Positions 3,996-4,144 of a stretch of DNA of 57,045 bases are shown piece after piece. Position 1 is the first letter of the stretch; every line of letters begins with the position of its first letter. This stretch comes from Leucoraja ocellata (lineage: Eukaryota): positions 6,956 through 64,000 of the forward strand of contig JAWMAR010000541.1 of NCBI GenBank assembly GCA_036785375.1, read 5' to 3'. Position numbers and translations under genes: made by a program. The notes under the pieces were generated by a model that did no database searches, was not told the origin of the DNA, and saw only the letters and a program-made list of their open reading frames with translations.

Positions 3996-4144
3996 CCAAT
4001 CACAGTCCGGCCCCGTCCCGTGAGTCACCGGTATCCGGGCAGAAGAGCCGAAAGATTTATGTCGCTCTCAACGACAGTGGAAAATATCCCAGTCTGTCCA
4101 ATCAGCAGCGGAACTGGGGCCGCGTCACCGGTTGTCGGGGAAAC
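3996..4144 (-). promoter_or_regulatory. MHC class I promoter with two tandem X1-X2-Y modules and a kB-like motif
   Basis: Distal module: GTTTCCCCGACAACCGG-TGACGCG-N18-ATTGG (4144-4098). Proximal module: CCCGGATACCGG-TGACTCA-N20-ATTGG (4039-3996). GGGATATTTTCC (4090-4079) lies between them. The region is CpG-rich and about 75-220 bp upstream of the ATG. Confidence 0.8.

What the first reader, a model, noticed from the sequence alone, without database searches (positions are those of the whole stretch)
3996..4144. Duplicated X1-X2-Y module, 100 bp apart, in a cartilaginous-fish class I promoter
Seen: two modules share ACCGGTGAC, each followed by ATTGG. The TGAC starts are at 4127 and 4027, and the TGAC-to-ATTGG offsets are 25 and 27 nt. 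The distal X2 is CRE-like (TGACGCG) and the proximal one is AP-1-like (TGACTCA). Established: SXY modules bind RFX, CREB/ATF and NF-Y and recruit NLRC5/CIITA. From memory, HLA class I has TGACGCG-N18-ATTGG, the same spacing as the distal module, and GGATAC in X1 as in the proximal one. Inference: deeply conserved enhanceosome geometry, here as a tandem pair.
Basis: partly seen in the sequence, partly recalled or inferred. Interest (0 to 1): 0.7.

Follow-up and report, generated by a model that had tools for sequence, protein, structure and literature searches.

The report
Twin MHC control modules in skate
An MHC class I immune gene of a skate-like fish has two standard MHC control modules side by side instead of one, a layout shared with related gene copies and other sampled organisms; it likely gives two docking sites for the usual activating proteins, but this copy lacks the neighbouring S and interferon boxes that would couple it to NLRC5 and interferon.

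Summary
Observation confirmed. Two X1-X2-Y modules lie on the minus strand upstream of the leader exon of an MHC class I gene (UAA-type, skate-like). A matrix built only from non-class-I modules scores them 33.5 and 28.4 bits, against at most 21.9 in 30 resamples. All 10 other copies of this promoter in the genome are also paired. Long contigs of two other organisms carry both modules with this same linker. Three other MHC promoters examined (two class I, one class IIA) have one module. Corrections: the modules are no more alike (31/66) than unrelated MHC modules, so a recent duplication is not supported. The 100-bp spacing is not fixed (83-85 bp in 9 of 10 copies). The proximal 27-nt offset is local (25 elsewhere). 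Most sister copies carry an ISRE, an S box with mouse H2-K geometry (CTAACCT, 16 bp before X1) and a third CCAAT. This copy has lost all of them, partly to a LINE insertion. So it works like an RFX/CREB/NF-Y enhanceosome site, but it fails the S-box test for an NLRC5-type module. Binding is untested. The scan had not noted it before. Verdict: new variant of a known kind.

The parts
4128..4139 (-). Distal X1 box (RFX-type, CCCGACAACCGG)
   Evidence: X1-X2 18 of 19 identical to the 84-bp-type copies, 15-16 of 19 to the class II-region distal modules
4121..4127 (-). Distal X2 box TGACGCG (CRE-like)
   Evidence: same 7-mer as in the mouse H2-K construct
4098..4102 (-). Distal Y box (inverted CCAAT), 18 nt after X2
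4040..4097 (-). Linker between the modules; 16 nt longer than in the 84-bp-type copies; the S-like CCAACTT of those copies is not kept; ends in CTTCTG as in H2-K/H2-D
   Evidence: the same long linker is in organisms C, D and E
4028..4039 (-). Proximal X1 box (CCCGGATACCGG)
   Evidence: with its flank and TGAC, 18 of 22 identical to the H2-D primer (counted by eye)
4021..4027 (-). Proximal X2 box TGACTCA (AP-1-like)
   Evidence: TGACTCA in 8 of 10 sister copies
3996..4000 (-). Proximal Y box, 20 nt after X2 (18 in 9 of 10 sister copies and in organisms C, D, E)
3865..3922 (-). Class I leader exon, coding part (MNMLRLLLLVALLCGGESA-G); donor GT at 3864
   Evidence: matches P0003/P0018; one RNA read of organism B stops at this donor
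4142..5440 (.). Nested LINE (CR1-like, label by eye and recall) 3' fragments right against the distal X1, where sister copies have their S box and ISRE
   Evidence: an 11-mer repeated at 4141-4151 and 4434-4444 may be a target-site duplication; contigs of organisms D and E continue with other sequence past 4141
102..361 (-). Class I alpha1 exon; one base short in a C run near 323, likely an assembly error
   Evidence: intact in 8 spliced public contigs

Best explanation
This is the promoter of a skate UAA-type MHC class I gene with two X1-X2-Y modules in tandem, each likely a docking site for RFX, CREB/ATF or AP-1 and NF-Y, likely acting additively rather than at a fixed mutual spacing. Shown: two modules in the standard order; the pair in all 10 sister copies and in two other organisms; single modules at two other class I genes and at class IIA; loss here of the ISRE, both S boxes and the third CCAAT. 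Inferred: the proximal module is the old class I promoter, because it shares CTTCTG-X1 with mouse H2-K/D and ATTGG-18-CCAAT with another skate class I gene. The distal module is an old addition in this lineage. Inferred: this copy likely gives constitutive enhanceosome-driven expression with weak NLRC5 and direct IRF input, and its distal module, the only one with the canonical 18-nt spacer, may carry most of the activity.
For: Independent matrix 33.5 and 28.4 bits against at most 21.9. Tandem in 10 of 10 copies; distal spacer 18 in 7, 19 in 2, Y lost in 1; proximal spacer 18 in 9. X1-X2 is kept at 18-19 of 19 between this type and the 84-bp type, while the X2-Y spacers keep 12-14 of 18. Contigs of organisms D and E hold both modules with 6 and 9 substitutions over 165 and 156 nt, while the stretch between Y and leader is replaced. 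Single modules before leader exons at C392:1353832, C563:1062330 and class IIA C541:512157. Exons matching the RFXAP, RFX5_N and NLRC5 atypical-CARD Pfam models are in the genome. The gene is transcribed in public data: 8 spliced contigs. Mouse geometry and S-box dependence of NLRC5 come from PMC4374748 passages.
Against: No binding, chromatin or reporter data. The 10 sister copies share descent, and no alpha1 exon was found within about 8 kb behind the nine that could be checked that way, so many may be orphans and their likeness may reflect recent copying rather than selection. Differences inside the boxes in D and E could be hidden under deeper paralogue contigs: 2 of 6 and 4 of 9 substitutions are unlisted. 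The genome-wide pattern gave 35 hits against 38 for its reversed control, so the pattern alone is not enriched, though 28 of the 35 have the 18-nt spacer and 13 lie on the MHC contig. In salmon cells IRF1 rather than the enhanceosome seemed to drive induction (PMC7573153 passages). RNA lay: 1 read in one run, 0 in the other. No shark or non-skate promoter could be examined.
Confidence: 0.6

Rival explanations
1. Only one module works and the other is a relic carried along. Either the distal module is the promoter here (canonical spacer; transcripts seem to start at or above the proximal Y), or the proximal one is and the distal is a stray enhancer-type module like those in the class II region.
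For: The proximal module has a 20-nt spacer and has lost its S-like box and CCAAT. One spliced RNA read reaches 4003, across the proximal Y box, and 3 of 8 spliced contigs reach at least the upstream ATG at 3970. Lone X-Y modules occur kilobases from genes on the same contig.
Against: Both X1-X2 cores are kept at 18-19 of 19 between two old promoter types, and both modules lie in the matching contigs of D and E. The start-site evidence is one read.
Confidence: 0.25
2. The two modules form one cooperative double enhanceosome with fixed helical phase (the strong form of the first reader's idea).
For: 84 bp, found in 6 of 10 copies, is 8.0 turns at 10.5 bp per turn; 83-85 in 9 of 10. The 100-bp linker is kept in organisms C, D and E.
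Against: 100 bp is 9.5 turns, the opposite face of the helix, and the gene with that spacing is transcribed. Two spacings coexist in one genome.
Confidence: 0.1
3. A recent local tandem duplication with no function.
For: The two modules share ACCGG between X1 and X2, which most other modules in the genome lack.
Against: They share 31 of 66 positions, no more than with class II-region modules; the spacers share 7 of 18 and 5 of 24. The pair predates the split of the two promoter types and of several organisms.
Confidence: 0.05

Closest known systems
Mammalian MHC class I SXY module (mouse H2-K/H2-D; NLRC5 enhanceosome; Ludigs et al. 2015, PMC4374748)
   Same: X1-X2-18 nt-ATTGG order and spacing, and CTTCTG just before X1. 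In 5 of 10 sister copies, CTAACCT lies exactly 16 nt before X1 as in H2-K. A CCAATCAG box lies downstream in 7 of 10.
   Different: Two modules instead of one. In this copy there is no S box, no ISRE and no downstream CCAAT, and the proximal spacer is 20.
MHC class II SXY modules and their multiple distal enhancers (CIITA enhanceosome; Krawczyk et al. 2004, seen only as a reference title in PMC7866136)
   Same: Several X-Y modules per locus. The distal module has the GCAAC/ACAAC-type X1 and GCTGATTGG Y, as in the H2-Eb construct and the class II-region modules of this genome.
   Different: Those modules lie kilobases apart, here 84-100 bp apart on a class I gene. The GCAAC-type X1 also occurs with a class I-type S box (L032, L053), so it does not mark class II.
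Teleost class I promoters with W/S, X2 and Y motifs (PMC7573153 passages)
   Same: SXY-type motifs in a fish class I promoter, with ISRE input in the sister copies.
   Different: No tandem pair is described in the passages read; this is a cartilaginous fish.
HLA-G promoter (PMC3987962 passages)
   Same: A class I gene whose promoter has lost standard inducible elements.
   Different: HLA-G keeps S and X1 and has divergent X2, Y and ISRE; here X1, X2 and Y are kept twice, and S and ISRE are lost.

Membership tests
MHC X1-X2-Y enhanceosome module | X1, X2 and inverted CCAAT in fixed order and orientation | tested here: met
   (independent matrix)
MHC X1-X2-Y enhanceosome module | 18-nt X2-to-Y spacer as in H2-K, distal module | tested here: met
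MHC X1-X2-Y enhanceosome module | 18-nt X2-to-Y spacer, proximal module | tested here: not met
   20 nt here; 18 in 9 of 10 sister copies. Whether 20 is tolerated is untested.
MHC X1-X2-Y enhanceosome module | Lies upstream of the transcription start | tested here: inconclusive
   Above the ATG, but one read reaches 4003; no start-site data
MHC X1-X2-Y enhanceosome module | Binds RFX, CREB/ATF and NF-Y | not testable with these tools
   Only the presence of RFXAP-, RFX5_N- and NLRC5-like exons was shown
NLRC5-type class I SXY module | Class I S box about 16 bp before X1 | tested here: not met
   Distal site is LINE tail, proximal reads CATAAAT. Met in sister copies: CTAACCT in 5 of 10, CTCACCT in 2.
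NLRC5-type class I SXY module | Transactivation by NLRC5 | not testable with these tools
   needs a reporter assay or ChIP
Classical class I promoter | ISRE upstream of SXY | tested here: not met
   No ISRE core between 3000 and 7900; present in 7 of 10 sister copies
Recent tandem duplication | The two units are each other's closest relatives | tested here: not met
   31 of 66 against 29-35 of 66 to class II-region modules
Classical MHC-Ia gene | Peptide-anchor residues Y7, Y59, R84, T143, K146, W147, Y159, Y171 (list recalled) | tested here: met
   read from P0003 and its alignment to 6lup_A, the best solved match at E 5.6e-97
Classical MHC-Ia gene | High polymorphism in alpha1/alpha2 | tested here: inconclusive
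   0-4 changes among 9 cluster members, but the cluster is cut at 90% identity; P0004 has the same alpha1 with an 80% alpha2
Classical MHC-Ia gene | Tight linkage to TAP and PSMB8/9 | tested here: inconclusive
   None of 30 listed proteasome exons is on C541; the contig ends inside the gene; TAP not searched. The neighbour is a short-chain dehydrogenase (HSD17B8 by recall), and hsd17b8 flanks a class Ib cluster in PMC10751288.

The most novel reading that the evidence does not exclude
The skate class Ia-type promoter is a two-enhanceosome array: ISRE, S-X-Y, S-X-Y, CCAAT, whose NLRC5-type S box has kept its letters and 16-bp spacing since sharks and mammals split. The gene in this window is an expressed, near-invariant offshoot in which a retroposon and small changes removed exactly the ISRE and S boxes, giving an interferon- and NLRC5-uncoupled class I gene driven by its distal module, a natural knockout that parallels HLA-G.
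Probability: 0.2. Interest if true: 0.65.

Novelty: new variant of a known kind. Interest (0 to 1): 0.42.

Why it matters
It extends the letters and spacing of the NLRC5-type class I module to cartilaginous fish; five searches found no paper on this. It shows a paired layout not seen at three other MHC promoters of the same genome. The factor that binds the S box is still unidentified (PMC4374748, PMC7866136), and this genome holds natural S-plus and S-minus versions of one promoter that can be compared directly. The mechanism itself is the known enhanceosome, so the surprise is moderate.

Tried and rejected
Pseudogene reading: the assembly is one base short in alpha1 and in alpha3, both in homopolymer runs, but 8 spliced public contigs are intact; rejected as likely assembly error. 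'Distal module is class II-type': weakened, because the GCAAC-type X1 also occurs with a class I-type S box at three TRIM-cluster-type sites. Displaced ISRE or S box further upstream: not found in the window. RNA start-site mapping: no RNA holder listed; 1 read and 0 reads in two laid runs, too few. LINE junction: a contig of organism B crosses it with only about 23 letters on the LINE side, below the bridging threshold, and the run that matches the window exactly has no listed contig across it, so an assembly artefact is not excluded. The class II beta search found nothing and is uninformative. Scan look-ups: nothing by sequence, one unrelated note by words. PMC2846915 has no 'promoter' passage. 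Figures and supplements of the papers were not seen; S3/S5 Figs of PMC4374748 and the teleost promoter papers it or others cite may bear on spacing tolerance and on earlier reports.

Full report
Observation. On the minus strand the distal module reads X1 4139-4128, TGACGCG 4127-4121, 18 nt, ATTGG 4102-4098. The proximal module reads X1 4039-4028, TGACTCA 4027-4021, 20 nt, ATTGG 4000-3996. An independent matrix from 8 modules that do not belong to class I genes scores the two sites 33.5 and 28.4 bits; the next site in the window scores 12.7, and 30 resampled windows reach at most 21.9. The stretch is CpG-rich.

The gene. A leader exon (ATG 3922/3916, donor 3864) and an alpha1 exon (361-102) are in the window, and alpha2 and alpha3 follow on contig C541. 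The best solved match is 6lup_A (recalled as nurse shark UAA), and the usual anchor residues are present. The nearest named proteins are from skates. Two one-base shortfalls in homopolymer runs are absent from 8 spliced public contigs, so the gene is likely intact and is transcribed. Classical status is open. The 9 cluster members differ little in alpha1/alpha2, but the cluster is cut at 90% identity. The gene sits beside a short-chain dehydrogenase (HSD17B8 by recall), and hsd17b8 flanks a class Ib cluster in other elasmobranchs (PMC10751288 passages). None of 30 listed proteasome exons is on this contig. A class II alpha gene is on the same contig, so this is MHC.

Sister copies. A search of the genome found 10 further copies of the promoter. 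All have two modules. X1-to-X1 distance is 84 in 6, 85 in 2, 83 in 1 and 77 in 1. The proximal spacer is 18 in 9 and 13 in 1; the distal spacer is 18 in 7, 19 in 2, with Y lost in 1. Seven of 10 have an ISRE-type TTTC-NN-TTT(C/G) upstream. Five have CTAACCT exactly 16 nt before the distal X1, and two have CTCACCT. All 10 have CCAACTT or a one-letter variant 15 nt before the proximal X1. Seven have CCAATCAG 18 nt after the proximal Y. Four carry a leader exon like those of skate proteins P0005-P0008, one of them frameshifted. No alpha1 exon was found within about 8 kb behind nine of them; the tenth has a UAA-like gene with a truncated alpha2 match 25 kb away. Many are therefore probably orphan pieces, and they are not independent evidence of selection.

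Other organisms. Contigs of 4 runs were laid and of 2 (5 different contig runs, coded organisms A-E, likely skates by similarity). Organism A is identical over 3600-4046. One contig each of D and E holds both modules with the long linker (3977-4141 with 6 substitutions and 2 gaps; 3986-4141 with 9 and 3), and a contig of C covers 3777-4092. In C, D and E two letters of the proximal spacer are absent, giving 18. D and E continue past 4141 with non-LINE sequence; in D the S position reads CAAATCA, a poor S box. So the 100-bp type is an old lineage, while the 20-nt spacer and the LINE are recent. Differences inside the boxes may be masked by deeper paralogue contigs.

Comparison with mammals. The H2-K construct printed in PMC4374748 (passages) runs ISRE, CTAACCT, 16 nt ending in CTTCTG, X1, TGACGCG, 18 nt, ATTGG. 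The sister copies reproduce the S box and its 16-nt spacing at the distal module, and CTTCTG-X1 at the proximal one. The proximal site matches the H2-D primer at 18 of 22 positions by eye. [quoted passage not shown] The window's copy has none: LINE tail sits at the distal S position, CATAAAT at the proximal one, and there is no ISRE core between 3000 and 7900.

Is the pair special, and is it a duplication? Single modules stand before leader exons at two other class I genes (C392:1353832, C563:1062330) and at class IIA (C541:512157). Upstream of two more class I alpha1 exons (C2088, and the second gene on C392) no module scored above 15 in 20 kb. The C392 module has ATTGG-18-CCAAT like the proximal module of the sister copies, which marks the proximal module as the old one (inference). 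The two window modules share 31 of 66 positions, and each shares 29-35 with class II-region modules, so a recent duplication is not supported; an ancient one cannot be excluded. The genome-wide pattern gave 35 hits against 38 for its reversed control, but 28 of the 35 have the 18-nt spacer and 13 lie on C541.

Mechanism. Most likely each module docks RFX, a bZIP factor and NF-Y (established for such modules; inferred here). Exons matching RFXAP, RFX5_N and the NLRC5 CARD are in the genome, and the whale shark has NLRC5 and CIITA (PMC8455134 passage). Because 84 bp (8.0 turns) and 100 bp (9.5 turns) coexist, additive action is more likely than a fixed phase. Without S boxes and ISRE this copy should respond weakly to NLRC5 and IRF1 (prediction). 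One spliced read reaches 4003 and 3 of 8 contigs reach 3970, a weak hint that starts lie above the proximal Y and that the distal module leads. Against: salmon data point to IRF1 rather than the enhanceosome for induction (PMC7573153 passages), and nothing functional was tested.

Novelty. SXY motifs are known in teleost class I promoters (passages), and multiple modules are known at class II (title only). Searches for shark or skate class I promoter boxes and for tandem SXY found no relevant paper in the listings; most subscription papers are outside this library. PMC3987962 was read in passages for HLA-G. The scan had nothing by sequence and one unrelated note by words. Verdict: new variant of a known kind, interest 0.42.

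Noticed in passing
G000:C541 208-237 kb, 474-512 kb, 618-648 kb (L040-L051, L065, L066, L071, L077): At least 16 lone X1-X2-18-Y modules in duplicated clusters in the class II part of the MHC contig; the 12 inspected have no leader exon right behind them. They look like distal class II enhancers, as known in mammals.
   Followed up: partly
G000:C230:2888369 and 2897082; C591:315643 (L059, L032, L053): Complete modules with TCAACCT exactly 16 nt before X1 and an 18-nt spacer (one with ATTGT for Y). The C591 one lies in a PRY-SPRY (TRIM-like) gene array on the opposite strand; possible NLRC5 targets outside class I. Gene not identified.
   Followed up: partly
window 3857-3907 and 3990-4140 in runs X13 and X15: Contigs of the 84-bp promoter type have depths far above the single long contig (hundreds to thousands against 41 or 75), a hint that the promoter-plus-leader piece is amplified in these organisms; depth is not a copy number.
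   Followed up: no
window about 16.7-36.7 kb, minus strand: Exons of a short-chain dehydrogenase (adh_short), HSD17B8/KE6 by recall; introns hold long tandem repeats.
   Followed up: partly
window 54456-54840, plus strand: An Ig V-like exon by eye (two cysteines, W, D-x-G-x-Y-x-C); Pfam found no family at E 0.001.
   Followed up: no
P0004 against P0003: Same leader and alpha1 but an 80% identical alpha2, suggesting exon shuffling between loci or alleles.
   Followed up: partly
window 3968-3970: The window has ATA where a contig of organism B and 3 of 8 spliced contigs have an in-frame upstream ATG; a 6-nt ATGAAC repeat before the leader also varies.
   Followed up: partly
G000:C1690: An RFX5_N match and a proteasome exon share this contig, as RFX5 and PSMB4 do in human (recalled), which suggests this is the RFX5 orthologue.
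   Followed up: no
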